From the IMG/VR virus record IMGVR_UViG_3300015177_000008, positions 47,519-111,518 of that record: a stretch of DNA of 64,000 nucleotides; one strand, given 5' to 3'. Origin of the DNA: a virus (lineage: Duplodnaviria; Heunggongvirae; Uroviricota; Caudoviricetes). Below the pieces are notes generated by a model. The model saw only the letters and a program-made list of their open reading frames with translations, was not told the origin of the DNA and made no database searches. Positions 6,751-59,924 of the stretch are shown one piece after another; positions within the stretch are counted from its first letter, which is position 1; every line of letters starts with the position of its first letter. The translations under genes were made by a program, and so were the position numbers.

Positions 6751-6764
6751 AAACAAGTTGTTTT
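6751..6764. promoter_or_regulatory. Class-1 palindrome AAACAA-N-TTGTTT (putative operator)
   Basis: aaacaagttgtttt, about 20 nt upstream of the 6163..6732 start on the minus strand. Confidence 0.45.
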
Positions 6765-6871
6765 CTTATGTGCTTTATTGTGATGTGGCATATAAGGGGA
6801 GCAAGCTAAACGTAAAGGTGCAAACTCTCTATTTTGGTCAACGAAACACAAGGGCCATTTGGCCCTTGTCA

Positions 6872-7030
6872 TTAACACGTTGCTTTACGGACTAGCGGAT
6901 AGGCGAAGTAGATCGCCAAACCAATGAGGACGCCATCAGAAATGACAGACATCATCTTTCCCGTGAAATCAACCAACACCGCCATCACCAGAAGAGCAAT
7001 GACGGTCACAAGCCGGAATCTCTCAAGCAT
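6872..7030 (-). CDS. Small membrane protein (52 aa)
   Basis: ATG overlaps the stop of the upstream gene (TAATG); hydrophobic MLERFRLVTVIALLVMAVLV...; below the track size cut-off. Confidence 0.3.
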   Translation of the reverse strand: MLERFRLVTVIALLVMAVLVDFTGKMMSVISDGVLIGLAIYFAYPLVRKATC

Positions 7031-7455
7031 TAGAGATAAGCATCCAGTGACAACTGAAGCGCCTGGGCGATCTTTTTCAGCGCCTGCTCTTCTTGTTCAC
7101 CAATGCCGTCCTGGTCGGCAATATCAAGGCACAGACACAGAACATCGACCGCCTCTGGAGTGCCCGCAATATCAGCCAGCTCACGCATAGCCTGTGCATT
7201 AGCGGAACGAGGGGACGCTTCGTAACGAGCACGGATATTGGCGCTCATTTGGGCAATTTCACCAGCAAACGGAGAAAACGCAGGCAGAGCTGCAATTGTT
7301 TTCTCAAGAATGGCAATTTCTTTTGCGTCACATGTGCCGTCGGCATAGGAGATCATGTACGCGCCCCACACGGTGGCCTCAACCGCATCACGGTTCTCCA
7401 TTTTTTTGACTTCAATAACAGCTTTACGAGTTTTCTTTTTGAAGAAACCTAACAT
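7030..7455 (-). CDS. Hypothetical protein
   Basis: 141 aa ORF; start context GGAAAACACATG; class-1 palindrome upstream. Confidence 0.5.
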   Translation of the reverse strand: MLGFFKKKTRKAVIEVKKMENRDAVEATVWGAYMISYADGTCDAKEIAILEKTIAALPAFSPFAGEIAQMSANIRARYEASPRSANAQAMRELADIAGTPEAVDVLCLCLDIADQDGIGEQEEQALKKIAQALQLSLDAYL

Positions 7456-7478
7456 GTGTTTTCCTTTTATTATTTGTC

Positions 7479-7493
7479 AAAACAAGTTGTTTT
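7479..7493. promoter_or_regulatory. Class-1 palindrome (putative operator)
   Basis: aaaacaagttgtttt upstream of the 7030..7455 start. Confidence 0.45.
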
Positions 7494-7548
7494 CTAGTTT
7501 CATATATTGCTTGCGCAAAGATGGTCAATGCATATGCACTAACAACCG

Positions 7549-7737
7549 TCAGAAATAACCAAGTACCGAACCGACTGGAAAAATAAAAATCCCAACTACA
7601 CGAGCCAAGGTCATGCCAGCCTGAAACTGGAGATCGCCAGAGCAAACAAGTTTTATAATGTTCGATACCCAACCGGCGGCCATGAGGGCCAGAATTGCCA
7701 GCCAAATTTTTCCAAAGTGATTTGAAAACCAGTTCAT
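7549..7737 (-). CDS. Small membrane protein (62 aa)
   Basis: Hydrophobic ORF; start overlaps the stop of 7734..7985 by 4 nt. Confidence 0.4.
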   Translation of the reverse strand: MNWFSNHFGKIWLAILALMAAGWVSNIIKLVCSGDLQFQAGMTLARVVGIFIFPVGSVLGYF

Positions 7738-7985
7738 ACAACCGCCTTAGTCACAGCATGATCCTGAGTAACTGGATGAACTTGAGGTATCGCATCCACC
7801 GCCATCCCATCCAGAGTGACAGGACGCTCCACTGGAGTGGTGGTAATTGTCGTCGACGAAGGTGTGGTGATGGATGAATCCGGCATCAAAAGGCTCTGAC
7901 CGGCTGGAACGGCTACCGTCGCCAGTGAAACTATAATGAGAACGTAGGCCATTGGTTTCAGCCTCTTTCTTTGAAAATTTTCCAT
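7734..7985 (-). CDS. Small secreted/membrane protein with Thr/Pro-rich tail (putative)
   Basis: N-terminal hydrophobic segment MAYVLIIVSLATVAVPAG; 4-nt overlap coupling to the next gene; lies entirely inside 7747..8241 in another frame. Confidence 0.35.
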   Translation of the reverse strand: MENFQRKRLKPMAYVLIIVSLATVAVPAGQSLLMPDSSITTPSSTTITTTPVERPVTLDGMAVDAIPQVHPVTQDHAVTKAVV

Positions 7986-8241
7986 CCGAACGGTCCTTGT
8001 TGTTTTTCTCCTTCACTAAAGGCCGTGCATTTTTCGCTTCACATGAAGAACTGGAGGTTACAATCGCCCCCACGTTCGCAACAACTGACGCTTGCTTATC
8101 TAAACGTGCCTTCAGCACCAGAACGGTAGTTTCCAATTCATCAAGACGTGACAGAAGGCGACCGCTAAATAATTCGGCCAAAATTTGACGTAAAGAACGA
8201 GGGCGTTTAGTTGCAGGAGTTAAAAAAAATTGACGTGCCAT
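7747..8241 (-). CDS. Hypothetical protein (C-terminal half possibly out of frame)
   Basis: N-terminal 85 aa look protein-like (coiled-coil); C-terminal part is low-complexity and overlaps 7734..7985. Confidence 0.35.
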   Translation of the reverse strand: MARQFFLTPATKRPRSLRQILAELFSGRLLSRLDELETTVLVLKARLDKQASVVANVGAIVTSSSSCEAKNARPLVKEKNNKDRSDGKFSKKEAETNGLRSHYSFTGDGSRSSRSEPFDAGFIHHHTFVDDNYHHSSGASCHSGWDGGGCDTSSSSSYSGSCCD

Positions 8242-8370
8242 GTGGACTCCATCCAGTGTCAGAAAGAGTTGCGGCTGGCGATTGCCAGCCGCCTTTCTCG
8301 TTCCATCCTGGAACTGTGTCTTACCGACACATTGTCATCCTGACGCCGATAAGATACATGATTTAACATA

Positions 8371-8390
8371 ATAGGTAAACACTTACTTAC
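8371..8390. promoter_or_regulatory. Class-2 AT-rich palindrome (ATARGTA...TACYTAT family)
   Basis: ataggtaaacacttacttac, overlapping the rnhA stop codon. Confidence 0.3.
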
Positions 8391-8980
8391 TGATTATTGT
8401 AAACAAAACCAATATCTTTCTTGTGAGGCGTATCTGCTGCGGAAAAAGCTGCGATCTTCGCCAGTCGATCACAGATTTCATTTTCACGATGCCCGGCGTG
8501 GCCTTTAACCCACTTCCAGCGAACATTATGTCGACTGGCAGCCTCATCCAGACGCTTCCACAGATCAACATTCTTTACTGGTTTTTTATCAGAAGTCATC
8601 CATCCATTACGTTTCCACCATTTCATCCACTGTGTCATGCCGTTTTTCAGATACTGGCTATCAGAGTGCAAAATAACGTTGCATGGATATTTCAAACGCT
8701 CCAGCCCGATAAGTGCCCCCATCATCTCCATGCGGTTATTGGTGGTGCTATGAAAACCATCTGAGAACTCGCGTTCCTCTCCACGATACTGGAGAACGAT
8801 ACCGTAACCGCCTGGGCCACCCGGATTTTTAAGGCAAGAGCCATCACTGAAGATTTTCACGGTTTTAAGCTGGGGATTGAACTCTACGACAGGCGTTGTG
8901 GGATTGGTGCGGGGAGAATTTTTGTTTTTGGCTTTTTTGCGAGTTTTTTCTTGCGATCGGGCTGGTGTCTTCGTCGTCAT
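8387..8980 (-). CDS. rnhA: Ribonuclease H
   Basis: ATG at 8980 with AGGAG upstream; RNase HI motifs ([32 protein letters not shown]). Track ORF extends upstream to 9034. Confidence 0.8.
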
Positions 8981-9039
8981 ATAAACTCCTGAATCAAGCG
9001 CCGCGCCGATTTTTTTCCTCGCGCGTGCGCACACGCGTG

Positions 9040-9560
9040 CGTGTTAATAATTATTAAAATAAACAAATTACTTCCCAGAACAGGTTTTTATAAACCTGAA
9101 CTGAACGAACGAAGTGAGTGAAGTTCACCTCGAACGAAGTGAGAGGTTGTCTTTTCAGGTAATACTCTCCCAGGGAGGTGAGTATAAAAATCCCTCACCA
9201 ACCTGGTCGTTTCATAACCTGAAAAGTTATGGCCTAAGTCTACTGCCAGCTTAGACTTGGGAAGTTATGGATGACAGCACCCCAGAACCGAGATCTTCCC
9301 ACACTTTATGAAGGGGAGTACTGGATTCAACCTCTCGAAACACCCCAGACTCGACAATCATAAAGTGACCCTTGTCTCCGCTCACTTTGGTTCCCCCTTC
9401 CCCGACACCTAAACGGCACCGGTTCTACGCTGGTAGTGAGCTTTTTTAAACCTGACGCCAGTGACGCTTACCCCCACCCATCAGGTCGAGTCTCCAGTCT
9501 ACGACTGGAAACTATCAGATCTTAGCACTTACAATTCATTTTATGAATAGTTTGTACTTA
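9040..9560. other. About 520-bp non-coding region with dense nested hairpins and short direct repeats (candidate structured RNA or origin-like region)
   Basis: No ORF of 60 aa or more; paired segments cttttcaggt/acctgaaaag, ggtgag/ctcacc, aagtcta/tagactt, ccagtc/gactgg; direct repeats gaacgaagtgag x2 and caccccaga x2; GC near 50 percent. Confidence 0.3.
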
Positions 9561-9564
9561 TCTA

Positions 9565-9795
9565 TCATTTCGATTGATTATTTTCTCGACCATGTAGTTG
9601 AACATTCAAGGCAAACACCTCGTTGATCAACTCACCTAAAAGCTGTTCAACAAGTTCGCGATGCTCCCCAAGATGCAAGCACTTAATTGCCCATTCGTAC
9701 AAGTTGAAAGCCTGCTCGCGGTCTTTCATCATTTCACGAGCCTTAGCCAGAAAATCGCTCTCTACGAGCGCAACAACATTGGTCGGGTATGGCAT
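9565..9795 (-). CDS. Hypothetical protein (76 aa)
   Basis: ORF in minus-strand gene array. Confidence 0.4.
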   Translation of the reverse strand: MPYPTNVVALVESDFLAKAREMMKDREQAFNLYEWAIKCLHLGEHRELVEQLLGELINEVFALNVQLHGRENNQSK

Positions 9796-15001: not shown

Positions 15002-16132
15002 TCACACCGCCACTGGAACCTTGATCCACGGTAGAGGGTCATAGCCAAGAATTAAAACCTCGTCCCATTTGAAATCATCCAACTCTGACCATTCATGAGG
15101 GAAAATAACGACCGGATCTGAATGCTCTGGAGCCTGTCGTTTCATTAGCTCACACACACCTTCCATGTGGTTGTTGTACAAATGCACGTCAAAGCCAAAA
15201 TGCACAAATGCACCGGCCATGTGACCCGTAATCTTCGCGAGAAAATGAGTGAGAATGCCATAGCCAGCAATATTGAATGGCATACCAACAAAAGTGTCTA
15301 CGCTACGCTGTACGAGGCAGGAGTTGAGGATGCGTTTGGGGATTCCAAGTTCATCCAGTTCAGCTTCAGTAACACTGCCGTCCATCTCCAGATCGTATAG
15401 CATCTTGGTGTAGATAGACTCGTAACCGAGGCGACTGTGTTGAAGACCAATGTCAGTTGCCATCGTTAAACGGGTTTCAAAATCCAGCTCACGACTCCAC
15501 AAAGAGAAGACAAAGTGGCAAGGTGGCAGTTTCATATCCTCAAGCTCGCCTACGTTCCATGCGTTAAGCATGATGCGACGATCGGTAGGGTTCGTGCGCA
15601 GTGTATCGACAATACGCTGTAGCTGATCGATTTCACGGGACAGCACTACGCGATCTTCACTGATACCCAGGTATCCCTCGACTTTGTACCCGCGTTCACG
15701 GAAAGTAGCGATCTTGCTCAGATATTCACTATGGCTCACGATGCGGGTATCTTCCCATCGACGCCACTGCTTACCGGAAACCGGCCCCAAATCGCCATTC
15801 TCATCGGCCCATGCATCCCAAATCTTAACGCCGTTATCCTTGAGAAATTGGATGTTGCCCGTGCCTTTCAGATACCACTCAAGTTCGACAAGCAGTGGCT
15901 TAAGATTTACCGCCTTTCCAGAAATAAGCGGCACAGTCCCACCAGTAAGCATGTAGTAAGAGGGAACGTAGCAGGTGCTTAAAGTACCAGTGCCTGTGCG
16001 ATCATCAGCCTGCACGCCGCTTTTAAGCACCGTCTCAATAACTTTTGCATACGATGCGTTTGTTACCTGACCGTTCGTATGCTCACGATTCAAAAGGAGT
16101 GACACAAAAACCTCACAAAGATAAGTAATCAC
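15002..16132 (-). CDS. thyA: Thymidylate synthase (with two insertions relative to ThyA as I recall it)
   Basis: DRTGTGT, WADENGDLGPV, RRIMLNAWNVGEL, LPPCH, PFNIAGYG motifs; true start uncertain because the annotated ATG lies inside a class-2 palindrome. Confidence 0.85.
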   Translation of the reverse strand: MITYLCEVFVSLLLNREHTNGQVTNASYAKVIETVLKSGVQADDRTGTGTLSTCYVPSYYMLTGGTVPLISGKAVNLKPLLVELEWYLKGTGNIQFLKDNGVKIWDAWADENGDLGPVSGKQWRRWEDTRIVSHSEYLSKIATFRERGYKVEGYLGISEDRVVLSREIDQLQRIVDTLRTNPTDRRIMLNAWNVGELEDMKLPPCHFVFSLWSRELDFETRLTMATDIGLQHSRLGYESIYTKMLYDLEMDGSVTEAELDELGIPKRILNSCLVQRSVDTFVGMPFNIAGYGILTHFLAKITGHMAGAFVHFGFDVHLYNNHMEGVCELMKRQAPEHSDPVVIFPHEWSELDDFKWDEVLILGYDPLPWIKVPVAV

Positions 16133-16138
16133 TTATTC
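16120..16138. promoter_or_regulatory. Class-2 AT-rich palindrome
   Basis: gataagtaatcacttattc, overlapping the thyA 5' end. Confidence 0.35.
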
Positions 16139-18365: not shown

Positions 18366-18395
18366 GTGTTTTTCCTTTTGCTTTTTGATGTGTTT

Positions 18396-18407
18396 AAACA
18401 AGTTGTT
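18396..18407. promoter_or_regulatory. Class-1 palindrome (putative operator)
   Basis: aaacaagttgtt about 30 nt upstream of the nrdB start, followed by a second short palindrome ttgtttaaacaa. Confidence 0.45.
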
Positions 18408-18469
18408 ATCTTATTTGTTTAAACAAGGCTTACAAATCAAAGAGAAGGTGGGATACACCCCACCATATG

Positions 18470-29390: not shown

Positions 29391-29816
29391 TCAATCTTCT
29401 TGTTTAGGGAAAAACTGTTCAATAACTCTGTCAACGGCTGTGTCTATATGGAGTAGATGCCACACAACCATATCTTTGCTTCCCATGCCTTGTGTGAATA
29501 TCACGTCATACTTACGCCATGCGCAGTGGAACCAATATGCTGAGTCATCAATTGGTAAATCCTCTCCCGCCTCTTTGAAGTATTTCAGCAGCATTGCCTG
29601 CTCTGCCGTTGGCGTTGGGCCTATTTCCTGAGCGTACATACGGATGAATCGCTGCCAGTCTGTCTCGTCGGGAGTTGGATCTGGTGGATTCATTTCGGCG
29701 ATAGCTTTTCGCAGCTGATGCGCCCAATCAGGTTCAGGAAAGCCTTTTGCTACTTCATCATCAATAACATCCAGAGCCACGTTTGCGGCATCGTAGAGTT
29801 TCTTAATAGCTGTCAT
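29391..29816 (-). CDS. Hypothetical protein
   Basis: 141 aa; class-1 palindrome and a terminator upstream. Confidence 0.45.
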   Translation of the reverse strand: MTAIKKLYDAANVALDVIDDEVAKGFPEPDWAHQLRKAIAEMNPPDPTPDETDWQRFIRMYAQEIGPTPTAEQAMLLKYFKEAGEDLPIDDSAYWFHCAWRKYDVIFTQGMGSKDMVVWHLLHIDTAVDRVIEQFFPKQED

Positions 29817-29832: not shown

Positions 29833-29846
29833 AAACAAGTTGTTTT
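29833..29846. promoter_or_regulatory. Class-1 palindrome (putative operator)
   Basis: aaacaagttgtttt between the terminator and the 29391..29816 start. Confidence 0.45.
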
Positions 29847-29864
29847 CTTAATAGGATAATTGCG

Positions 29865-30973: not shown

Positions 30974-30990
30974 GATAAGTAAGTACTTAT
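30974..30990. promoter_or_regulatory. Class-2 AT-rich palindrome
   Basis: gataagtaagtacttat upstream of the 30742..30942 start. Confidence 0.35.
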
Positions 30991-31034: not shown

Positions 31035-33374
31035 TTACTCTTCTACTGACTCGGTGGGATTGTCTTTTGATCTCCGGTCGTCGATTGCCTGTAAAGCCGC
31101 AATGATTTCAGCTAGTGGCTTCTCCCGATACATCTCGACGATCTGTGATTTGGTGTATTTCTTGTCACCAATTTCTACTCGACCGCTGGCGTTCTTTGGC
31201 AGGTATCCTTCTTCCAGCATGTACTCGACGAGCGACTCGATAACGTCGAGGCCACGAGTAGGATCGAAGTAGAATTTCCAGGTGCATTTGCCATACGGTG
31301 GTGCAACTTTGTTTTTGATGCACTCTGCGCCTACGTCCTGACCGATCTTCTCTTTCCCATCCTTCATCACCGATGCACCGAGACGGATGCGCACAGAAGC
31401 GTAAAACTTCGGTGAATCGCCGCCTGGAGACGTAGTAGGGTCGCCAAACATTACACCGATTTTTGTGCGAACCTGATTCAAGAAGATGATGCAGGCGTTG
31501 TATTTGCGTGCCCACAAAGCCAGAGTGGGGAAGTTCGCACTCGTCGCACGAGCCAGCGCCGTATTGTCGTTCATGTTTAGCTGATCTTTGTCTTTGGCAG
31601 TGCCTTCAGCCATCTTTTCGAACTTCTCGGCTTTGGAGTTCGGAACCATAGACGCAAGTGAGTCAGCCACGATACAGATAGGTGCTGATTCAGGAATAAG
31701 CTCTTCATCACGTACCAATTTAAGAATTGTGCCGATCAACTCTACAGAGTCTTCGAAGGTATCAGGCTGCTTGTATACCCACTGACCGTCATCCTCATCT
31801 GCATTCAAACCATTGGCTACAGCCAGGCCAACGTCAAAACTGTTTTCATGATCGAGGAATACCGCCAGACCATCTTGTTTTTGAGCGGAGATCATCGCTG
31901 CTGTTGCAAGGAATGTGTTGTGGCTGATAATCCCGTTAGACCAGAAAGAGTGTGTTTCCGGCATCGCTACGTCGAACGTTGGTGCTTCACCTTCCTCAAT
32001 AGCCACGACTTCGTCGTAGAACAAGTTAGAGCCAATTACCGCTGCCAGTTGTGCAAACAGATGCTCGTTAAAACGATTCTTTCTGCCAATGAAGGAGACA
32101 TAGATTTCTCGCAGTTTGTCTATTCCGACACGATCGCCGCGGCCAATAACGTGGTCTACCAGAGCGTAGTCTTCACGGGTGGTCTTGGTGAGCGACTCGT
32201 AGAGTGATTTCACTAAGCCGCTGATGTGCGGAACATAGCCTGAGTAAGTGCGGTCAAAACCAATGTCCCGTTTGGTTGCCACTGATAAACGTGCCGGAGA
32301 TTCGAAACCAATCGTTGACAGAAAAAGGTCGTAATTAGAGCCACTGAATGACAGCCGGTAATATGTATTTTCATAACCCGCGACGTGTTTTTCAGAGATA
32401 GTTGACGTAATCCCCAGATTCAGGAGCATGAGGCGAATTTGCTGTAGCAGCAGCCCACTCGCGCTCACAACCTCAATGCAGCGACCATCATTGACGTGGC
32501 ATTCCAGCTCAAAGTAGCCGCGAAGGAATGCAATTTGAGCCTCGCTATTGGCGCGACGCACACTCAACGGAACCTGCTTGCCAGCAGCTTTCTCATACTC
32601 CAGACCATATTCTTTAAAAAGCAGCGAACGCACCTCTTTGCTAAACAGCACATGGTCTTCCGAGCCGTTATGTTTTCTCGTAACTGGCATCTTGTCTGAT
32701 ACCAGCGAAATGAGGCGGTAGTACTCATCCTTGATGAAAGGATCTGTGTTAGAAAAATTCACTGAATTTTCAGAGGCCACGTATCCGTCAGCAATTAAAT
32801 AGCCCATCAGTTTTGCGATATTGGCATCCAGGTGCTGATCGCCGAATTGATGTGTGCCAACCATTGAAGGAATCGTGTCGCCTACACTGATTTTTTCAGC
32901 ATGTCGCCAGACGACATTACCTAAGTCGTCAACCACACGGATTGGGTGACGGAACGTAGCCTCGATATAACCGCCTGATGCCAGCTTAATACGCTTGAAT
33001 TTGCGACGGTTGTTCCATGTCAGGTGTGAGGTCTTCTCTATCACGCCATTTTCATTGATGAGTCCAACGTTATGCTCTACATCGCGAGTAGTGCATGTCG
33101 CTTTGTACCCTTCAATCTCAAACAACTCTTTCACTGTTACCATTCCACGCTCCGTCAGCAGCATGGTGTCTGCGGTAACACATTTCCCCGCACTTGGAGG
33201 ACCGAATACTTCGACGATACGACCACATGGGAAGCCGCCATCGTAACGACCAGAAATAGCTTTGTTTAACGGTGGAAAGCCTGTATCAATCCAATGAGTT
33301 ACTTTCTGAATTTCGTCGTTGCTACCGATTTTCTTTTTCAGAGCAAGTGCCAGTGCGGATTTTCCTTTTGCCAT
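31035..33374 (-). CDS. recA: RecA-family recombinase interrupted by an intein
   Basis: Exteins GRIVEVFGPPSAGK...TFLATAAM and FLNQVRTKIGVMFGDPTTSPGGDSPKFYASVRIRLGA resemble RecA; a 422-aa insertion splits the Walker A motif. Confidence 0.8.
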   Translation of the reverse strand: MAKGKSALALALKKKIGSNDEIQKVTHWIDTGFPPLNKAISGRYDGGFPCGRIVEVFGPPSAGKCVTADTMLLTERGMVTVKELFEIEGYKATCTTRDVEHNVGLINENGVIEKTSHLTWNNRRKFKRIKLASGGYIEATFRHPIRVVDDLGNVVWRHAEKISVGDTIPSMVGTHQFGDQHLDANIAKLMGYLIADGYVASENSVNFSNTDPFIKDEYYRLISLVSDKMPVTRKHNGSEDHVLFSKEVRSLLFKEYGLEYEKAAGKQVPLSVRRANSEAQIAFLRGYFELECHVNDGRCIEVVSASGLLLQQIRLMLLNLGITSTISEKHVAGYENTYYRLSFSGSNYDLFLSTIGFESPARLSVATKRDIGFDRTYSGYVPHISGLVKSLYESLTKTTREDYALVDHVIGRGDRVGIDKLREIYVSFIGRKNRFNEHLFAQLAAVIGSNLFYDEVVAIEEGEAPTFDVAMPETHSFWSNGIISHNTFLATAAMISAQKQDGLAVFLDHENSFDVGLAVANGLNADEDDGQWVYKQPDTFEDSVELIGTILKLVRDEELIPESAPICIVADSLASMVPNSKAEKFEKMAEGTAKDKDQLNMNDNTALARATSANFPTLALWARKYNACIIFLNQVRTKIGVMFGDPTTSPGGDSPKFYASVRIRLGASVMKDGKEKIGQDVGAECIKNKVAPPYGKCTWKFYFDPTRGLDVIESLVEYMLEEGYLPKNASGRVEIGDKKYTKSQIVEMYREKPLAEIIAALQAIDDRRSKDNPTESVEE
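31917..33182 (-). mobile_element. Intein with LAGLIDADG homing-endonuclease domain inside recA
   Basis: Starts with Cys directly after GPPSAGK, ends ...SHN followed by Thr; LAGLIDADG-type blocks LMGYLIADGYV and LRGYFELECHV. Confidence 0.7.
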
Positions 33375-37328: not shown

Positions 37329-37657
37329 TGATGCCCGCCAATTGGCGGGCATCTGTTCTCTGTAAAGGTGTCTGGCATCGTCTGGTTCGTTAACGTTTAC
37401 TAAACCAATGGTGACAAAAATTAGTTATCTTTGAAAAATAAAGGTTGCATGAAAAGAAGGGGTATGCGTTAATAGCATCGTTGGTTTGCAAGACAGACCT
37501 TATGTAAGCAGTTTTAGTAAAGCAGTCTCAGTTCAGTGTTATCTTCTGATTTCCCTTCTTCGTGAGTCTCCTCCTTAAGTGCCTAAGTAAGTCCCAATCT
37601 ATACAGATCAAATTCTCGCCGCACTATGTGGCTCACAAAATTAAGAAGGTAATATCT

Positions 37658-37873
37658 ATGTCTAATAAAATGACTGGTTTAGTAAAATGGTTTAACTCTG
37701 ATAAAGGCTTTGGCTTTATTTCTCCTGCTGATGGCAGTAAAGATGTTTTTGTACATTTTTCGGCAATTCAGAGTAATAATTTCCGCACTTTGGAAGAAGG
37801 CCAGCAGGTCGAATTCTCTATCGAGAATGGGGCTAAAGGCCCAGCAGCAGCAAATGTCGTTGCTCTAAGCTGA
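37658..37873 (+). CDS. Cold-shock protein, CspA family
   Basis: [38 protein letters not shown]... (RNP1/RNP2 motifs); long 5' leader of about 160 nt; track ORF starts upstream. Confidence 0.85.
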
Positions 37874-38151
37874 TTCAACGCTGATGATCCTCATTTCTAC
37901 AATAACGAAGACGGTGTAAGCCTGAGTGGATAGATTTGTAGGATTGTACAAGTTGAATAAATTAGCATGGTAAGGCCATGCTAATTAAATCGACACAACG
38001 GCCAGTTTATTCCATAAAAGTGAATTGCCCATTGTGGCGAAATGCGGGGTTGCCGCATGAATAGTCAAAGGCAGAAGCTAACTGCCGGCATGGCAAAACA
38101 AAGTGCGTAAGAGGAGTGACTTCCTCAACAAGCGCCATAATTCTTTATAAA

Positions 38152-45315: not shown

Positions 45316-45413
45316 GGCTAATCCTTTGTTATGAAAACAAATTATTTACTAGTGTGTTTAATGTAGCACTGCGCGAACAGGGAACTAAGCCATTCGCGCA
45401 GGGAGAAGAGGGG

Positions 45414-45626
45414 TTAACAGATTCTGACGGCTAAAGACCCGGAGCCGGTATTGAGAAGCGTGAAGCGTTTGTTGTTAAGTTCGAATATAAAGCCAGTTGT
45501 GTCATTCACACCAACCTGAATCTGCTCATTCGGTAGATCGGTGAGGATGTCAGCCACATACTCATCAGCTAATTTCTGTACGTGTCCGATCTCAAGAGCG
45601 ATTAGACTGGAAATAGTGGTTTTCAT
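45414..45626 (-). CDS. Hypothetical protein (70 aa)
   Basis: ORF. Confidence 0.35.
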   Translation of the reverse strand: MKTTISSLIALEIGHVQKLADEYVADILTDLPNEQIQVGVNDTTGFIFELNNKRFTLLNTGSGSLAVRIC

Positions 45627-45833: not shown

Positions 45834-45847
45834 GGTAAGCACTTACC
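45834..45847. promoter_or_regulatory. Class-2-type palindrome at the regulator's transcription start region
   Basis: ggtaagcacttacc directly downstream of the -10 (autoregulatory position). Confidence 0.4.
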
Positions 45848-45878: not shown

Positions 45879-46265
45879 ATGTCTGACAACAAGATTGAAT
45901 TTATAGAAAGTCGCTATGCTGCTTTTATCGCAGGGCTGATTGAATCCTCACCTATGAGTCAGGCCCAAATAGCCAGACTTATTGGTTATAAAAATGCCAA
46001 CAACCTTTCTTTAATTAAAAGTGGCAAAATTCCTTTGCCTATCGATAAGGTTCGTCCGCTGGCGCTGGCACTGGGTATTGAGCCAAGTCGTCTTATGATG
46101 ATGGTGCTGGAAGAACGCCAACCCGAACTTGCAGCATTTTTATACAAAGAAGGCACTGCTCCTCTTAACGAGGACGAAAAACAGGTTCTTGCTGCATATA
46201 ACGAGCGATTCGGTAAAGAGAAAGGCGCATCACAAAAGGTTGTTGAGGCCATAAAGTCTCTATGA
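45879..46265 (+). CDS. XRE-family helix-turn-helix transcriptional regulator (candidate repressor)
   Basis: HTH MSQAQIARLIGYKNANNLSLIKSG; plus-strand gene convergent with the recombinase. Confidence 0.65.
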   Translation: MSDNKIEFIESRYAAFIAGLIESSPMSQAQIARLIGYKNANNLSLIKSGKIPLPIDKVRPLALALGIEPSRLMMMVLEERQPELAAFLYKEGTAPLNEDEKQVLAAYNERFGKEKGASQKVVEAIKSL

Positions 46266-50800: not shown

Positions 50801-50822
50801 GATAAGTAAGTAAATACTTATC
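50801..50822. promoter_or_regulatory. Class-2 AT-rich palindrome (perfect 8-bp arms)
   Basis: gataagtaagtaaatacttatc. Confidence 0.4.
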
Positions 50823-51122: not shown

Positions 51123-51271
51123 TTTTTCACCTTTGTTTCATGAACTACCCGATACACACGCTTTCCGATGCACAGTGTTTTGGTTTTAAGTTCCTGCTTA
51201 ATTAAATCACGACAGATGCCGAAGCCGATAAGGAAGCCACCCATAAAAGCTAATGAGATGTATGGAATCAT
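51119..51271 (-). CDS. Small membrane protein (50 aa)
   Basis: MIPYISLAFMGGFLIGFGIC...; ATGA overlaps at both ends; GGAG before the ATG. Confidence 0.3.
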   Translation of the reverse strand: MIPYISLAFMGGFLIGFGICRDLIKQELKTKTLCIGKRVYRVVHETKVKK

Positions 51272-51483
51272 TTTAACGCTCCTGATTCTACTAATTGCTG
51301 TAGCAATACTTTCCCTTTATCAGTTAACTGGTAGTTGGCCGAACACCACGTTTCAGAAACGTTTGCAACCAACCCTAAACGCTCTAACTTAGCTCGCGTT
51401 TTAGGCTTCCAGTACTCAGGGAACTCCGGCCACTTACTGATTTCATGAAGCGTTTCCTTCTCCCGTTTACTTAATACGATCAT
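51268..51483 (-). CDS. Hypothetical protein (71 aa)
   Basis: ORF in overlap-coupled chain. Confidence 0.4.
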   Translation of the reverse strand: MIVLSKREKETLHEISKWPEFPEYWKPKTRAKLERLGLVANVSETWCSANYQLTDKGKVLLQQLVESGALK

Positions 51484-51646: not shown

Positions 51647-52965
51647 TCTTTATCTCCGATTCGATCTTCTGTATCGCGTAAGCAACGCGGCCATTTCAGT
51701 CGTGGGTGGCGTAAGCTGCCGTCCGGTGTTTTCTCGTGACAATGAACCTCGACAATACGACCACGGTACTTCTCTTTGTTGTTCCAGATCTCATCCAGAT
51801 ATTTATGCTTAATGCCGCTCGCACGAACGATGACGCCGTTTTCAAGACGAATAACAATTTTTCCAAGTGTGTTGGCAAAACCAGAGTCCGGGTCGCCCGG
51901 CTCAAAGTCGATAATTTCACCATCTTCGGAATCTTCGTCTTTTAACTTCCACCAGCTGCGGGTACGTTTAAACTCGTAAACAGAGTTCGGATCTTTGCCC
52001 ATCTCCCCTTCTTCGTTATCGTCCAGGCGTTTCATGAAGCGTTCGATGAAGTCTTCGTGGCTATGGATGATATAGAACGGATGCAGGTGAATGTCTTGTG
52101 TGTAGCCTTCACTGCGATCGTTTTTGAACAACGCCACCAGCATAGCCAGGCGCTCTTTCAGCTTCATACCTGTCTTTGCATACTCTTTGGATTTAGCCTG
52201 TGCTCGCCATTCCGGTAGGAAGAAGTCGAAAACATGATAAATAGCGCCAATTGCCTGCACGTTCTTTTTGCGCAATGCAGATACGGACTGGTTAAATGAA
52301 CCGGCAGTTCCTTCACCATCGAAGAAGATGTGTTTGTGGCCTGAAAGTTTGCCTAATTCGAGCATTGCTGGCTTTAGGTGATCGAGAGACGTGATTGGAT
52401 TACCAGTACGAGAAAGGAAGTTAACCTCTTCCTCGTCAACAATAACCTCGCAAATTACTCGCAAACCATCGAGCTTAAGACTGCCAATCATCGGCCATTT
52501 TGCTTTAGGATTTGGCTTGAAGGGGTATTTGTCGCCTTTTTCTTTATACGGTGACGCCAGCTGCACCTCGAATTTCGGAATGGGATTTTCAAAAACCTTG
52601 TTGCATAGGCTAATCCCAACACCTGCTTTCGGGTCTTTTAAGAGGAAACGACGGAACACGTCCTGCCCATCGGCGCACATTGACGCCACGATAGACTCAA
52701 CAGCTGCTATTGCTGCGTTCCCCGTTAGCTCGCGAGAGGCCAGCTTATTCAGTACATCAATGGCTTTTTCGTCACTTGGGATGGACTCACTAAGCGGCTC
52801 TGCCACTTTGTATTTCTTTACCCCAAAACGGATGAAAGGGTTGAGCATCAATGAAACCATGCTTTGCTCGAAGTCATCCATGTTGGCCAATGCCTCTTTT
52901 TTTGCATTGGTTCCCATAGCTTTCATTTCGTCCAGCTTATGCTTAAGTGCGATCAACTTTTTCAT
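51643..52965 (-). CDS. ATP-dependent DNA ligase
   Basis: Adenylation motif I KLDGLR and downstream nucleotidyltransferase motifs. Confidence 0.8.
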   Translation of the reverse strand: MKKLIALKHKLDEMKAMGTNAKKEALANMDDFEQSMVSLMLNPFIRFGVKKYKVAEPLSESIPSDEKAIDVLNKLASRELTGNAAIAAVESIVASMCADGQDVFRRFLLKDPKAGVGISLCNKVFENPIPKFEVQLASPYKEKGDKYPFKPNPKAKWPMIGSLKLDGLRVICEVIVDEEEVNFLSRTGNPITSLDHLKPAMLELGKLSGHKHIFFDGEGTAGSFNQSVSALRKKNVQAIGAIYHVFDFFLPEWRAQAKSKEYAKTGMKLKERLAMLVALFKNDRSEGYTQDIHLHPFYIIHSHEDFIERFMKRLDDNEEGEMGKDPNSVYEFKRTRSWWKLKDEDSEDGEIIDFEPGDPDSGFANTLGKIVIRLENGVIVRASGIKHKYLDEIWNNKEKYRGRIVEVHCHEKTPDGSLRHPRLKWPRCLRDTEDRIGDKE

Positions 52966-54323: not shown

Positions 54324-54343
54324 ATAAGTAGTCATCTACTTAT
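54324..54343. promoter_or_regulatory. Class-2 AT-rich palindrome
   Basis: ataagtagtcatctacttat (8-bp arms). Confidence 0.35.
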
Positions 54344-56961: not shown

Positions 56962-56980
56962 GTGCTTTCCTTTATTTTTT

Positions 56981-56994
56981 AAACAAATTGTTTT
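56981..56994. promoter_or_regulatory. Class-1 palindrome (putative operator)
   Basis: aaacaaattgtttt about 20 nt upstream of the helicase start. Confidence 0.45.
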
Positions 56995-57004
56995 CTAGTG
57001 TTAG

Positions 57005-57745
57005 TTAATTAGATAGGGAATCAATAAACCGCCGTGCTTCTTCCAGTTCTTCTGGAAAGTGGGCGGAAATAAGGCGCTCTGGAACGATTTCCATTAGCCA
57101 GGTAGCGGAGAAAATTGCGCGTATGCGCTTGCTGCGGGGGATGGCGCGTAAACGCTCCAGAATCCACTCAAAATAGCTTTCCTGAATCGGGTTGAACTGC
57201 ATGTCTCCCATATGCTTAAAGCTAACCAGAGAGTCATCCAGACGGGTTGTTGCGCGTCTGGCTAATTTCTCTTCAAATATCTCAATCAGTTCTGGCTGCC
57301 ACAAATGCTGTGGGCGAGGCAGCTTGTCCCACAAACGTCGTGCAGCTGCGGAAAGCACGGTGGAGATAAAGTAGTCGTATGAGCAGCAATAGCGATCCGC
57401 AAACTGGCGTGCTTTCCATAGCGACGTTTTATTGGCAGTCGACAACTCCTGATAAGGCAGGCGTTTTAACCCGGTGGTGAACGGAGCTGTTTCAAAGTGT
57501 TCGCGACCGTGCGTCAGCATGATATTTGAGTACTGACGTTTGTATGCCTCCGTAAAAAGGCAGGTGGCCATGAGAGGATGCATGTCGCGGTAATCAAACC
57601 ACTTCGTCTCGAAGAGTTCAGCCTCGTCTTTACAGCGCGACAAACCAATGTTTTCAGCGACCCACTTGTCCATAACAGCGGTATTCCACTCTGTCATGAA
57701 GTCGTACTGGTCGTTGTCGATGGTATCGAAAAAGATTTGGCTCAT
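57005..57745 (-). CDS. Hypothetical protein
   Basis: ATG at 57745; track ORF starts at an upstream GTG. Confidence 0.45.
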   Translation of the reverse strand: MSQIFFDTIDNDQYDFMTEWNTAVMDKWVAENIGLSRCKDEAELFETKWFDYRDMHPLMATCLFTEAYKRQYSNIMLTHGREHFETAPFTTGLKRLPYQELSTANKTSLWKARQFADRYCCSYDYFISTVLSAAARRLWDKLPRPQHLWQPELIEIFEEKLARRATTRLDDSLVSFKHMGDMQFNPIQESYFEWILERLRAIPRSKRIRAIFSATWLMEIVPERLISAHFPEELEEARRFIDSLSN

Positions 57746-57756
57746 GTGGCTCACCT

Positions 57757-57778
57757 GGTAGGTAGTTACTTACTTATC
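57757..57778. promoter_or_regulatory. Class-2 AT-rich palindrome
   Basis: ggtaggtagttacttacttatc. Confidence 0.3.
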
Positions 57779-57861
57779 ACAATGAGCGGATGATAGCGAC
57801 TGGTGGCAGTTTTTGGAAGTGGAAACGGAAGGGAGTTGTTCTGGTGGTGTCTTTTAAAAGA

Positions 57862-57916
57862 CCTGCTTCCGTATATATTTAATAAGTTACTTATTATTTA
57901 TATATACAGAAGCAGG
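57862..57916. repeat. 55-bp element with 16-bp terminal inverted repeats (copy 2 of 2)
   Basis: cctgcttccgtatata ... tatatacagaagcagg; core contains ataagttacttat. Confidence 0.5.
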
Positions 57917-58027
57917 CATAACTTGTCGTCTTAGACGCCCAGAAGCTCTACACTTTGAGCCTGTTAAATTGATTAAAAACTTATGTGTAAAATAGAACGC
58001 ATTAGTCAGTAGCTAAGAGATGCAATA

Positions 58028-58795
58028 ATGGACGATTTATCGGTATACGCGAGATCATTGGATAAGGCTAAATACTATGTTTATTGTCTCTATGATACAG
58101 AAGACAAGATGAAAAGACCGTTTTACATAGGAAAAGGCAAATCGACTCGTTGTCTCGATCACATCAAGTATCCCGATGACTCTCCCAAATCCATGCGGAT
58201 CAAAGAACTTTTGGCTAATAAAAAATTAGGCATAGATATTCTTCGTCATGGTATGGATGAAACCACAGCCAAACTTGTTGAGGCGACATGCATCGACCTT
58301 ATGGGGGTCGGAGAGCTTACGAATAAGGTACGAGGAAGTGGTTCCATGATGGGCAGAATATCACTGGACGCCTACCATCACTTAGTGCTGCAAGAGGAAA
58401 CTGAAATTGCTCCTGAGCACGCCGGTCTTGCCTTCCTGCTAAACAGCACCTACAAGTCAGGAATGTCCGCTCTGGCATTATATGAAGCTACGCGTGGCGT
58501 ATGGGCAAAGGTTCCAAGAGACGAGAATCTCAAATATGCCTACGCTACATATGGTGGGCTGATAATGGAAGTTTATCAGATTGAATGCTGGGTCAAAGCC
58601 GGTTCTCAGCAGTACTTTACAAGGGATATAGCTCTTGGCCCCGACACAAAACGTTATGAATTTGTTGGCAGAATAGCCGATGAGCATATTAGAAAACTGT
58701 ATGTAGGCAAATTAATCAAGAAGCCACCAAGCTACGGTAGCCCTTTTGTGAAGGTTGGGGTGGTTAGGACTGAACATAGTGTTAGTGCGGCATAA
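58028..58795 (+). CDS. GIY-YIG endonuclease (free-standing, homing-endonuclease-like)
   Basis: GIY-YIG-like N-terminus YYVYCLYD...PFYIGKGKSTRCLDH; isolated plus-strand gene with its own terminator. Confidence 0.55.
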   Translation: MDDLSVYARSLDKAKYYVYCLYDTEDKMKRPFYIGKGKSTRCLDHIKYPDDSPKSMRIKELLANKKLGIDILRHGMDETTAKLVEATCIDLMGVGELTNKVRGSGSMMGRISLDAYHHLVLQEETEIAPEHAGLAFLLNSTYKSGMSALALYEATRGVWAKVPRDENLKYAYATYGGLIMEVYQIECWVKAGSQQYFTRDIALGPDTKRYEFVGRIADEHIRKLYVGKLIKKPPSYGSPFVKVGVVRTEHSVSAA

Positions 58796-58811
58796 AGCTG
58801 ACACTGTAGTT

Positions 58812-58849
58812 ATGCATTGGCGCAATATACGCGCCAATGCATGATTTTT
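58812..58849. terminator. Bidirectional rho-independent terminator
   Basis: atgcattggcgc aatata gcgccaatgcat then gaTTTTTaa, between convergent genes. Confidence 0.6.
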
Positions 58850-59207
58850 AACCTTTCTTCATCAACTCTCGTTTGATTTCATCGGTACGCATCGTGACAT
58901 CGGCAGCGGTGATCGCCTCATTCAATTTCACGATGTCCTCGATTTCCTGCGGTGACTTCTCTGCCAGATGGAAAATGGCTGCTCGAATCACGTCAGAACG
59001 AGTGAACTTCTCGAAGCGAGGGATGAACTTCATCATCTCCAGCAGTTCGAAGTATTCGTCCTCCAGTGACATTGTGCGGCTTTTAATTTTCTCTTTGCCA
59101 CGAGTCGGGCGTCCCTGTGGTCTGACTGGTTGGCGCAAAGGAGTTGTGTTCTTAGCCGGTGCATCAGGCTCTTTGCGCTTTGCTAGGTCACCCATTTTCA
59201 TGGACAT
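58848..59207 (-). CDS. Small partition protein, ParG-like (putative)
   Basis: 119 aa basic protein immediately downstream of parA; RHH assignment not checked against sequence. Confidence 0.45.
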   Translation of the reverse strand: MSMKMGDLAKRKEPDAPAKNTTPLRQPVRPQGRPTRGKEKIKSRTMSLEDEYFELLEMMKFIPRFEKFTRSDVIRAAIFHLAEKSPQEIEDIVKLNEAITAADVTMRTDEIKRELMKKG

Positions 59208-59875
59208 TATTCTTCTTCCTCCAGACTCAACAGATAATCTACAAATTCTTCAAACTCGGCTTCCGCCTTTTTGTCGCGCTCGCTACCGGTCATTTCAAAG
59301 ATAGAACGACCAGACTCTTCCGCATCATCATAGACGTTGCGGTTATATAGATTGACTGGCGCAGACTCGATTCCAAACGTCTCAACAATCTCTTTAGCCG
59401 CCAGAATGCGAGACACTTGTGATGGCAAAGCCGGGCACTGGTTCATGACCGCGCGGACCTTCACTTTATCGTTTACATTGCGAACATTGTCGATAATAGG
59501 ATCGATGTCACGTAAAGATTTCAAATCACGACGCTTAGGACGCAGCGGGATAATGATAACGTCAGCCATCAGCATCGCTTGTCGCTGAATTTCGGAGTCG
59601 AAGCCACCAGCATCTACCACTACAAACTCAGCTCTACCCTGAAGCGATTTTAGGTGCTTAATGATGTCATCCTGAACGTATGCAAAAGGAATCAGCTCAA
59701 GGTCTTCGTTCTGTCGACGGTCTTCACACCAGCTCGTTGTCGTGCGCTGAATATCTATATCGGTAATATAAACCTTCTTCTTCTTATTGACTTTCAGGCA
59801 AACGGCAATTTGCTGGGCAACGGTGGATTTGCCAGGCCCGCCCTTTGTGCCGCCAACCACAAAGATCTTGGTCAT
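59207..59875 (-). CDS. parA: ParA-family partition ATPase (small, type Ib-like)
   Basis: Deviant Walker A GGTKGGPGKST; class-1 palindrome in its upstream region. Confidence 0.8.
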   Translation of the reverse strand: MTKIFVVGGTKGGPGKSTVAQQIAVCLKVNKKKKVYITDIDIQRTTTSWCEDRRQNEDLELIPFAYVQDDIIKHLKSLQGRAEFVVVDAGGFDSEIQRQAMLMADVIIIPLRPKRRDLKSLRDIDPIIDNVRNVNDKVKVRAVMNQCPALPSQVSRILAAKEIVETFGIESAPVNLYNRNVYDDAEESGRSIFEMTGSERDKKAEAEFEEFVDYLLSLEEEE

Positions 59876-59910
59876 TGGAGAGTTCCCTTTGCGTATATAA
59901 TTATCGTCTG

Positions 59911-59924
59911 AAACAACTTGTTTT
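59911..59924. promoter_or_regulatory. Class-1 palindrome (putative operator) upstream of parA
   Basis: aaacaacttgtttt preceded by TATAAG. Confidence 0.45.

What the first reader, a model, noticed from the sequence alone, without database searches (positions are those of the whole stretch)
6751..59924. Dispersed class-1 palindrome AAACAA-N-TTGTTT upstream of at least six operons, including parA, nrdB and the helicase gene
A 7-1-7 inverted repeat occurs at 6751, 7479, 18396, 29833, 56981 and 59911, with a degenerate copy near 45337 before the CobT-like gene. Each copy is 15-35 nt upstream of a minus-strand start codon and directly follows a -10-like TAAGA/TAGAA, so it overlaps the likely transcription start. 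The arrangement looks like the operator set of a single global repressor, comparable to multi-operator control in other extrachromosomal prophages; the factor is not identified.
Basis: seen in the sequence. Interest (0 to 1): 0.75.

Follow-up and report, generated by a model that had tools for sequence, protein, structure and literature searches.

The report
Shared operator motif of SSU5-like phage-plasmids
A 16-base, nearly palindromic DNA word sits just upstream of seven gene blocks in this E. coli phage-plasmid and at about 20 promoters genome-wide in its relatives, so it is most likely the docking site of one still-unidentified master regulator of the virus's replication and lytic genes.

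Summary
AAACAANTTGTTT occurs 5 times exactly (0 expected) plus two one-mismatch copies. All seven lie in ORF-free DNA, 16-35 nt before minus-strand start codons.

The window is an SSU5-like phage-plasmid of E. coli (pLF82/Cyrano type). The unit is an asymmetric 16-mer, AGAAAACAAnTTGTTT.

Complete genomes carry 17-21 copies. Copies persist at orthologous promoters while flanks diverge, even in a Klebsiella lineage whose helicase is only 69% identical. Multi-copy contigs in IMG/VR are all SSU5-like. Moellerella and Acinetobacter relatives lack the regulon.

Copies lie downstream of the inferred -10, or flipped at about -38, and some pairs are 51 bp apart. No stable RNA hairpin forms. Downstream genes are silent in published lysogen RNA-seq, except the parA operon.

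Best reading: operators of one global dsDNA-binding repressor. The proposed HTH (45879-46265) is not supported: its control region holds a different palindrome, and SSU5 lacks it.

My leading, unproven candidate is the small protein encoded after parA (58848-59207), which I read as ParG/omega-like.

I found no description of this motif in the searchable literature. It is a new member of a known kind.

The parts
6751..6766 (-). class-1 site, AGAAAACAACTTGTTT, 18 nt before the ATG of a hypothetical gene (6163-6732, CYRAN_87-like)
   Evidence: Orthologous sites in SSU5 (AAACTACTTGTTT) and Klebsiella p2 (AAACAACTTGTTA), with -10-like CACAAT/CATAAT upstream.
7480..7495 (-). class-1 site, AGAAAACAACTTGTTT, 24 nt before the ATG of the TerB/TciA-like gene (7030-7455)
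   Evidence: Klebsiella p2 has AAACAAATTGTTT before its TerB gene, in diverged flanks.
18396..18411 (-). class-1 site with one mismatch, AGATAACAACTTGTTT, between nrdA and nrdB, 30 nt before the nrdB ATG (18365)
   Evidence: The same variant (TAACAATTTGTTT) occurs in SSU5. Absent from Klebsiella p2.
29833..29848 (-). class-1 site, AGAAAACAACTTGTTT, after a terminator-like hairpin (caggcgtccagttggacgcctttttt), 16 nt before the ATG of a DUF7238 gene (29391-29816)
   Evidence: Klebsiella p2 has hairpin plus AAACAACTTGTTT at the same place; SSU5 has AAACAAATTGGTT.
45335..45350 (-). degenerate class-1 site, AGTAAATAATTTGTTT, 19 nt before the CobT-like ATG (45315)
   Evidence: The SSU5 orthologue is perfect (AGAAAACAAATTGTTT). 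Klebsiella p2 has another palindrome there.
56981..56996 (-). class-1 site, AGAAAACAATTTGTTT, 19 nt before the DnaB-like helicase ATG (56961)
   Evidence: In 79 IMG/VR loci (37 distinct sequences) the -35-like TTGATC/TTGATT is kept throughout, and the 16-mer is kept in all but the two most divergent sequences, while the DNA between them diverges. Perfect in Klebsiella p2 and in the L219 lineage.
59911..59926 (-). class-1 site, AGAAAACAAGTTGTTT, 35 nt before the parA ATG (59875)
   Evidence: A class-1(-like) site sits at the parA promoter in every lineage that has this parA-CBP module.
59207..59875 (-). parA: 222-aa MipZ/ParA/CbiA P-loop ATPase with no DNA-binding domain (type Ib-like)
   Evidence: Pfam. 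Annotated ParA in Cyrano. Its operon is the only motif-bearing operon that is on in the lysogen.
58848..59207 (-). 119-aa protein encoded right after parA. I read it as a ribbon-helix-helix centromere-binding protein. It is the leading but unproven candidate for the factor.
   Evidence: Alignment A1: invariant MGDLAKR, SRTMSxEDE and FTRSDVIRAAI at 48% overall identity. The family is small and always next to parA. The fold is not confirmed.

Best explanation
The seven copies are the in-window part of a regulon of about 17-21 operators for one sequence-specific, dimeric dsDNA-binding regulator of the enterobacterial SSU5-like phage-plasmids. The site is the asymmetric 16-mer AGAAAACAAnTTGTTT. 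At most promoters it lies between the inferred -10 and the ribosome-binding site, centred roughly between -1 and +16. A bound protein there would block RNA polymerase binding or escape. At some promoters a second, flipped copy lies 51 bp upstream (centre about -38) and covers the -35 region, which would allow cooperative binding on both sides of the core promoter. In the plasmid-prophage state the factor keeps the replication, nucleotide-metabolism, early small-ORF and terminase promoters shut. Shown here: the motif, its enrichment, its asymmetry and two orientations, its conservation and family specificity, and the silence of the downstream genes in a lysogen. Inferred: promoter and transcription-start positions, repression rather than activation, and the factor. 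My leading candidate (about 0.4) is the 119-aa protein encoded after parA (58848-59207). On that reading it autoregulates parA, as ParG or omega do, and has been recruited as a global repressor, with the dispersed sites possibly also serving as centromeres.
For: Enrichment: 5 exact copies against 0 expected. All 7 lie in ORF-free DNA in one orientation relative to the gene.

Whole genomes: 17 sites in E. coli plasmid NZ_CP117002.1, 20 in the first 100 kb of SSU5, and 21 (16 exact) in Klebsiella p2, whose helicase is only 69% identical.

Footprints: the motif stays while flanks diverge at the helicase, parA, TerB, CYRAN_87-like and DUF7238 genes.

Family specificity: every multi-hit contig in IMG/VR is SSU5-like, and 45 other loci are single hits.

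dsDNA recognition: 47 of 58 sites carry the xGA flank on exactly one side, and the 16-mer occurs in both orientations. Variants are single, uncompensated changes. RNA folds are weak, with dG -0.7 to -2.7 kcal/mol and z-scores from -1.5 to +0.4.

Geometry: the distance to the -10-like hexamer varies from 1-2 nt (helicase) to 10 nt (TGnGATAAT cassettes). Pairs recur at 51 bp and 25 bp.

Expression in the Cyrano lysogen (background 9.8): helicase 21, cobT 7.8, CYRAN_58 5.7, nrdB 12.9, CYRAN_85 7.0, CYRAN_87 7.1, CYRAN_101 7.5. The parA operon reads 50/89/55 (PMC9928086 S1 Table).

For the parA-partner protein: it is expressed in the lysogen (89). Its putative DNA-contact segment SRTxSxE is invariant across the family. 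Its range (797 plasmids, Enterobacterales only) matches the motif's host range. No other conserved symmetric element lies around parA. A class-1(-like) site accompanies the parA-CBP module in all five lineages examined. That includes Moellerella, which has no dispersed regulon, and an unrelated 43-kb contig.
Against: No binding or transcription-start data exist. The strict sigma-70 scan finds no consensus promoter immediately upstream of the window sites, so promoter placement rests on comparative alignment. Silence in the lysogen also fits an activator that is absent in lysogeny, because most phage genes are at background anyway.

Against the parA-partner protein: the ribbon-helix-helix fold is my reading of a sequence signature only. 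Pfam, PDB sequence search and hhalign against ParG and omega found nothing. The AF2 monomer is poor (pLDDT 63) and Foldseek was uninformative. It is present in Moellerella, where the dispersed sites are absent. In the Acinetobacter relative the global palindrome and the parA repeats differ. Eight other proteins fit the presence/absence pattern of the regulon better: homologues of CYRAN_37, 38, 59, 62, 101, 106, 111 and the FljA-like CYRAN_114.
Confidence: 0.62

Rival explanations
1. The motif is a positive element: the binding site of a phage-encoded activator made after induction. It would act from about -38, like a class II activator, on extended -10 promoters that lack a -35. The copies downstream of the -10 would then be secondary or feedback sites.
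For: Flipped upstream copies are centred near -38, next to TGnGATAAT and with poor -35 hexamers. In Klebsiella p2 several promoters keep only that upstream copy intact. Downstream genes are off in the lysogen, as expected if the activator is absent. Two small winged-helix-like proteins that are silent in the lysogen exist: the CYRAN_37 homologue at 51268-51483 and CYRAN_123 just before terS.
Against: All seven window copies, and most copies elsewhere, lie between the -10-like hexamer and the ribosome-binding site, where activators do not normally work. The distance to the -10 varies by about 9 nt. Extended -10 promoters and the TTGATC-N16-TAGTAT helicase promoter should fire without help, yet they read at background. 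The parA operon carries a perfect copy and is on in the lysogen.
Confidence: 0.13
2. The motif acts in the mRNA. AGAAAACAAnUUGUUU at the 5' end of the leaders would be bound by the family's FljA-like, Sm/Hfq-like protein (CYRAN_114 homologue, outside the window). That protein would block translation and destabilise the transcripts, as FljA does on the fliC leader.
For: CYRAN_114 matches Pfam PF03614 (repressor of phase-1 flagellin) at E 1e-80, with a weak Hfq/LSM hit. [quoted passage not shown] The gene is present in E. coli, SSU5 and Klebsiella p2 and absent from the two lineages without the regulon. It is modestly expressed in lysogens. Most copies lie in the inferred 5' leader.
Against: The 16-mer occurs flipped upstream of promoters, where in RNA it would read as a different sequence (AAACAAnUUGUUUUCU). 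Yet those copies are the best conserved ones in Klebsiella p2. At the helicase promoter the inferred start falls inside the motif. No stable hairpin forms and no compensatory changes are seen. The E. coli fliC leader contains nothing like the motif. The protein is only 36% identical between lineages that share an unchanged motif. No copy lies upstream of its own gene.
Confidence: 0.08
3. The sites are bound by a host (Enterobacteriaceae) DNA-binding protein that the phage-plasmid exploits, not by a plasmid-encoded factor.
For: The motif is unchanged in plasmids of Escherichia, Salmonella and Klebsiella, whereas the Acinetobacter relative uses a different palindrome. No plasmid-encoded binder has been identified.
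Against: Multi-copy occurrence is confined to SSU5-like contigs among viral contigs. The Moellerella relative, also in Enterobacterales, lacks the regulon. I know of no E. coli regulator with this site; that rests on my own knowledge and was not tested genome-wide.
Confidence: 0.07
4. The copies are mainly inherited parts of duplicated, mobile promoter cassettes (terminator / promoter / leader), spread by recombination like the PeSL cassettes of T4-type phages, without a dedicated binding factor.
For: Outside the window the copies sit in near-identical modules: hairpin, flipped copy, TGnGATAAT, 10 nt, AGAAAACAA, ribosome-binding site, small ORF. In Klebsiella p2 the right half is often lost exactly at the palindrome centre.
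Against: At the helicase, parA and TerB promoters the surrounding promoter sequence is not cassette-like, and only the 16-mer is shared. Conservation of a 13-bp palindrome with 16 exact copies in a lineage at about 69% protein identity needs selection on the palindrome itself. This reading is compatible with the main one and explains spread, not function.
Confidence: 0.05

Closest known systems
Phage P1 C1 repressor and its dispersed operators (plasmid prophage)
   Same: One regulator with many operators scattered over a plasmid-prophage genome, controlling unrelated lytic and replication operons.
   Different: P1 operators are a 17-bp asymmetric sequence (ATTGCTCTAATAAATTT, from my own knowledge). 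It has no match in the window even at 3 mismatches. No C1 homologue was found among the regulators examined. The site here is a 6-1-6 palindrome with a one-sided AGA extension.
KorB (OB, 13-bp palindrome TTTAGCSGCTAAA) and KorA (OA) of IncP plasmid RK2
   Same: A 13-bp palindrome present about a dozen times at or near promoters of a plasmid. It is bound by a partition protein that doubles as a global repressor (my own knowledge of the RK2 literature).
   Different: The sequence differs. KorB is a ParB-family HTH protein. The ParB_N proteins of this family (CYRAN_119/120) lie outside the window, are silent in the lysogen (5 and 9.5) and are conserved in lineages that lack the motif.
Omega (pSM19035) and ParG (TP228): ribbon-helix-helix centromere-binding proteins of type Ib partition systems
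   Same: A small ParA without a DNA-binding domain is followed by a small protein with a flexible basic N-terminus. There is a repeat at the parA promoter. ParG is described as a ribbon-helix-helix factor acting with ParF on parH (PMC3130281 abstract). Omega regulates several operons through 7-bp repeats in direct or inverted pairs (my own knowledge).
   Different: No detectable sequence or profile similarity to ParG or omega and no Pfam hit. There is one palindrome, not an array, at parA. About 20 sites are spread over 100 kb, which would be a far larger regulon than either protein is known to control.
Phage-plasmid N15: four separate IR centromere sites bound by SopB
   Same: A plasmid prophage whose centromere consists of separate palindromic sites (IR1-4, GTGCGACCnnGGTCGCAC) rather than one array. 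They had to be joined artificially to mimic sopC (PMC7205306).
   Different: N15 uses a type Ia SopA/SopB system and only four sites. A regulatory role for those sites is not documented in what I read.

Membership tests
Operator set of a single global repressor of a plasmid or plasmid-prophage (P1 C1 / RK2 Kor type) | Many dispersed copies of one conserved sequence, far above chance | tested here: met
   5 exact copies against 0 expected in the window. 17, 20 and 21 sites in three genomes.
Operator set of a single global repressor of a plasmid or plasmid-prophage (P1 C1 / RK2 Kor type) | Copies overlap promoters or transcription starts | tested here: inconclusive
   Comparative alignments place -10-like hexamers 1-10 nt upstream and a conserved TTGATC -35 at the helicase gene. 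The strict consensus scan finds nothing convincing at the window sites. No 5'-end data exist.
Operator set of a single global repressor of a plasmid or plasmid-prophage (P1 C1 / RK2 Kor type) | Genes behind the sites are repressed in the prophage state | tested here: met
   Published lysogen RNA-seq: 5.7-21 against a background of 9.8 for the motif-linked genes, and 50-89 for the parA operon. This is weak as a test because most phage genes are at background.
Operator set of a single global repressor of a plasmid or plasmid-prophage (P1 C1 / RK2 Kor type) | An identified cognate DNA-binding protein | not testable with these tools
   Candidates were ranked only by conservation, expression and context.
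P1 C1 operators specifically | 17-bp consensus ATTGCTCTAATAAATTT | tested here: not met
   0 matches at up to 3 mismatches.
Type Ib partition cassette with a ribbon-helix-helix centromere-binding protein (ParF/ParG, delta/omega type) | Small Walker-type ParA without an N-terminal DNA-binding domain | tested here: met
   222 aa; MipZ/AAA_31/CbiA/ParA hits cover the protein and there is no HTH domain.
Type Ib partition cassette with a ribbon-helix-helix centromere-binding protein (ParF/ParG, delta/omega type) | Small partner gene immediately downstream, always co-inherited with parA | tested here: met
   58848-59207 overlaps the parA stop codon. Both genes are present in every relative that covers the region.
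Type Ib partition cassette with a ribbon-helix-helix centromere-binding protein (ParF/ParG, delta/omega type) | Ribbon-helix-helix fold of the partner | tested here: inconclusive
   The signature SRTMSLEDEYFELL...FTRSDVIRAAI and AF2 helices 48-60 and 70-84 fit. However there is no Pfam, PDB or hhalign support, pLDDT is 63, and the strand is not modelled in a monomer.
Type Ib partition cassette with a ribbon-helix-helix centromere-binding protein (ParF/ParG, delta/omega type) | Repeats at the parA promoter that serve as operator and centromere | tested here: inconclusive
   One class-1 palindrome is the only conserved symmetric element there. It recurs in class-1(-like) form in five lineages. 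There is no array, and binding is untested.
Structured RNA element, terminator hairpin or known Rfam family | Stable, conserved secondary structure with compensatory changes | tested here: not met
   dG -0.7 to -2.7 kcal/mol and z-scores from -1.5 to +0.4. Variants are uncompensated. No Rfam hit lies at the sites.
FljA-type 5'-leader target | Resemblance to the known FljA target (the fliC leader) | tested here: not met
   The E. coli K-12 fliC leader holds no class-1-like sequence. The Salmonella leader was not available.

The most novel reading that the evidence does not exclude
The plasmid-partition adaptor, the small protein encoded after parA, is also the master repressor of the phage's lytic and replication genes. 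The roughly 20 dispersed operators would double as a distributed centromere. Plasmid segregation and the lysis-lysogeny decision of SSU5-like phage-plasmids would then be run by one protein.
Probability: 0.33. Interest if true: 0.75.

Novelty: new member of a known kind. Interest (0 to 1): 0.55.

Why it matters
SSU5-like phage-plasmids include pHCM2 of S. Typhi and pLF82/Cyrano of adherent-invasive E. coli, and they make up hundreds of the roughly 110-kb plasmids of clinical Klebsiella, Enterobacter and E. coli. About 800-900 records in PLSDB match.

How they hold their lytic genes silent is not described in the literature I could search. A defined 16-bp operator present at about 20 promoters gives a direct experimental handle:
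- It can be used as bait to identify the regulator.
- It can be used to predict the regulon in any relative.
- It can be used to build reporters for induction.

Related lineages in Acinetobacter carry a different palindrome in the same role. This suggests a conserved design with exchangeable specificity.

Tried and rejected
- HTH at 45879-46265 as the factor: rejected. Its control region holds a different local palindrome, SSU5 lacks it, and it varies among relatives.
- RepA as the factor: rejected. It is only 51% identical between two E. coli relatives that have identical motifs.
- ParB_N proteins CYRAN_119/120: unlikely. They are silent in the lysogen and are conserved where the motif is absent.
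- The small protein after the UvsW-like helicase (CYRAN_117): its putative DNA-facing residues differ among lineages that share the motif.
- The 31-bp palindrome after the parA-partner gene (58812-58842) as a centromere: it is E. coli-specific and not conserved.
- RNA hairpin: rejected.
- Rfam: nothing at the sites.
- Fold confirmation of the parA-partner protein led nowhere: Pfam, PHROGs (unknown function), PDB sequence search, hhalign against ParG and omega, AF2 monomer and Foldseek.
- Profile search of 1.8 billion representatives found only 18 relatives, so no characterised homologue is available.
- Literature searches for the motif, and for SSU5 or pHCM2 regulation, found nothing. The primary FljA papers are not held.
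- The strict sigma-70 scan did not help to place promoters.

Full report
**Observation.** AAACAANTTGTTT occurs exactly at 6751, 7480, 29833, 56981 and 59911. No match occurred in 100 dinucleotide-preserving shuffles. One-mismatch copies lie at 18396 and 45335. Read on the minus strand, every copy is preceded by AGA (AGT at 45335). Each ends 16-35 nt before a minus-strand ATG. All seven lie in ORF-free DNA, which is 21% of the window (P about 2e-5). The 9-mer AGAAAACAA occurs 8 times against 1.1 expected. The repeat is 6-1-6, not 7-1-7. The 'TAAGA' is part of the motif, not a -10.

**Source.** The window is an SSU5-like phage-plasmid of E. coli. It is 99.6% identical to plasmid NZ_CP117002.1, 97.7% to phage Cyrano (pLF82) and about 80% to Salmonella phage SSU5. 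The genes behind the sites are:
- a hypothetical gene (6163-6732)
- TerB/TciA-like (7030-7455)
- nrdB
- a DUF7238 gene (29391-29816)
- the CobT-like gene
- the DnaB-like helicase
- parA

**Extent.** The window holds only part of the set.

| Genome | Sites (<=1 mismatch) | Source |
|---|---|---|
| E. coli plasmid NZ_CP117002.1 (complete) | 17 | |
| SSU5 (first 100 kb) | 20 | |
| Klebsiella plasmid NZ_CP065827.1 | 21, of which 16 exact | |

The Klebsiella plasmid's helicase is only 69% identical at the protein level. Outside the window the copies cluster before small early ORFs and before the terminase small-subunit gene.

Orthologous comparisons show the motif as an island in diverged flanks at the helicase, parA, TerB, CYRAN_87-like and DUF7238 promoters. 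Among 79 IMG/VR loci (37 distinct helicase-upstream sequences), TTGATC/TTGATT is kept throughout. The 16-mer is kept in all but the two most divergent sequences, while the DNA between them varies. Another lineage with a divergent parA partner also keeps the sites.

Every contig with several matches was SSU5-like, and 45 other loci were single hits.

The regulon is absent from a Moellerella relative and an Acinetobacter relative. The Acinetobacter plasmid instead has 18 copies of CAGTCAGTACTGACTG. Most of these lie in the promoter spacer just before TATACT. The design is therefore shared while the word differs.

**Anatomy and position.** Of 58 sites in three genomes, 47 carry xGA on exactly one side, against a 6-7% background. 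The unit is thus an asymmetric 16-mer that occurs in both orientations.
- In the commoner orientation it lies between a -10-like hexamer and the ribosome-binding site. The hexamer is 1-2 nt away at the helicase promoter (TAGTAT, TACGAT, CATAAT). It is 10 nt away in a recurrent cassette (TGnGATAAT-N10-AGAAAACAA).
- In the flipped orientation it lies about 19 nt upstream of the -10, often right after a terminator-like hairpin.
- Four promoters have both copies, 51 bp apart. Three places have pairs 25 bp apart.

The variable distance to the -10 argues for an operator rather than a core promoter element. These placements are inferred. The tool's strict sigma-70 scan finds nothing convincing at the window sites, and no 5'-end data exist.

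**DNA or RNA.** The evidence favours dsDNA recognition:
- The flipped copies would read differently in RNA, yet they are the best conserved copies in the Klebsiella lineage.
- Variants are single, uncompensated changes.
- The seven leaders fold weakly and no better than shuffles.
- Rfam has nothing at the sites.

**Expression.** In the published RNA-seq of the Cyrano lysogen (PMC9928086, S1 Table; background 9.8) the motif-linked genes are at or near background. The helicase reads 21, cobT 7.8, CYRAN_58 5.7, nrdB 12.9, CYRAN_85 7.0, CYRAN_87 7.1 and CYRAN_101 7.5. The parA operon reads 50/89/55. This fits repression, with partial expression of one autoregulated operon. It does not exclude an activator that is absent in lysogens.

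**Who binds.**

However, its control region carries GGTAAGTGCTTACC and GGTAAG half-sites and no class-1 copy. This matches a second class of dispersed palindromes, ATAAGTA-N-TACTTAT. SSU5 lacks the gene, and it varies among relatives that keep class 1. It is more likely the class-2 factor.

*The protein after parA (58848-59207).* This is my leading candidate, for the following reasons:
- It has an invariant MGDLAKR tip, a basic disordered arm, and invariant SRTMSxEDE and FTRSDVIRAAI segments at 48% overall identity.
- I read this as a ParG/omega-like ribbon-helix-helix protein, but no tool confirmed the fold.
- It is expressed in the lysogen.
- It belongs to the only motif-bearing operon that is on.
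- It is confined to Enterobacterales relatives.
- It always travels with a class-1(-like) site at the parA promoter, even in Moellerella and on an unrelated 43-kb contig.
- No other conserved symmetric element lies around parA.

*Points against it.* It is present in Moellerella, where the regulon is absent. Eight other proteins match the regulon's presence/absence pattern better, including a 71-aa winged-helix-like protein (51268-51483) and an FljA-like protein (PF03614, E 1e-80). FljA is a 5'-leader mRNA repressor, which makes an RNA-level rival worth stating. But the E. coli fliC leader has no such motif, and the flipped copies argue against it.

**Comparison with known systems.** The arrangement works like the multi-operator regulons of P1 (C1), RK2 (KorA/KorB) and pSM19035 (omega). 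If the partition protein is the factor, it also resembles the separated centromere sites of N15. It is not a member of the P1 set: the C1 operator is absent. Membership of the ParG/omega family is unproven.

**Novelty.** No paper in the searchable library holds the motif or describes regulation in this family. I rate it a new member of a known kind. Interest is moderate, and higher if the partition protein proves to be the master regulator.

Noticed in passing
window 16121-16136, 30975-30990, 45834-45847, 50802-50821, 54324-54343, 57882-57894: A second class of dispersed palindromes, ATAAGTA-(N2-6)-TACTTAT, usually followed by CTTT and lying in intergenic DNA before genes. The variant GGTAAGTGCTTACC sits in the control region of the HTH gene. 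SSU5 and Klebsiella p2 have many copies (TAGGTAAGnnCTTACCTA, AAGTAAn4TTACTT). This may be the HTH protein's operator set.
   Followed up: partly
window 6733-6746, 7456-7469, 18366-18380, 56962-56975 (minus strand): Near-identical translation-initiation regions, AAGGAAA(A/G)CACATG, recur before unrelated genes and are kept in SSU5 and Klebsiella p2. This is more uniform than a Shine-Dalgarno sequence alone requires.
   Followed up: no
locus set L089+L092+L093 (Acinetobacter baumannii plasmid NZ_CP035046.1): A distant relative has 18 copies of another palindrome, CAGTCAGTACTGACTG. Most lie in the promoter spacer directly before TATACT. Half-sites lie upstream of its HTH gene, whose recognition helix differs from the enteric one.
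   Followed up: partly
outside the window: Cyrano CYRAN_114 (OV696614 100780-101301), SSU5_121, Klebsiella p2 52030-52566: The family encodes a full-length homologue of FljA, the repressor of phase-1 flagellin (PF03614, E 1e-80), with weak Hfq/LSM similarity. It is present even in plasmids of Klebsiella pneumoniae, which as far as I know is non-flagellated. Its target is unknown.
   Followed up: partly
window 37480-37898: A complete cspA thermoregulator RNA element (Rfam RF01766, 186 bits) and a cold-shock protein gene are carried by the phage-plasmid.
   Followed up: no
window 31035-33374: The RecA/UvsX-like recombinase ORF is 779 aa and is annotated as a LAGLIDADG homing endonuclease or Hint-domain protein. 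The SSU5 recombinase gene is 1077 bp, about 358 aa. This looks like an intein insertion.
   Followed up: no
window 58812-58842: A perfect 12-bp-arm palindrome, ATGCATTGGCGC-N7-GCGCCAATGCAT, lies right after the stop codon of the parA-partner gene. It is present in the E. coli lineage only.
   Followed up: yes
window 1-3100: An accessory block with the end of an inverse-autotransporter (intimin-like) gene, a MarR-family regulator (2079-2567) and a PerC-family activator (2742-3056). Cyrano has different genes at the corresponding place.
   Followed up: no
Moellerella plasmid NZ_CP093251.1 (L214-L216): This relative lacks class-1 sites but has about 8 copies of another repeat, (A)ATACTATGGGAGCTAGGC. 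Its role is unknown.
   Followed up: no
Cyrano lysogen RNA-seq (PMC9928086 S1 Table): In macrophages CYRAN_46, the gene divergent from the HTH gene (window 45414-45626), rises from log2 4.3 to 10.8. CYRAN_60-62 rise to 8.3-9.0, while CYRAN_58-59, directly behind the class-1 site at 29833, stay low. An internal promoter therefore escapes class-1 control.
   Followed up: no
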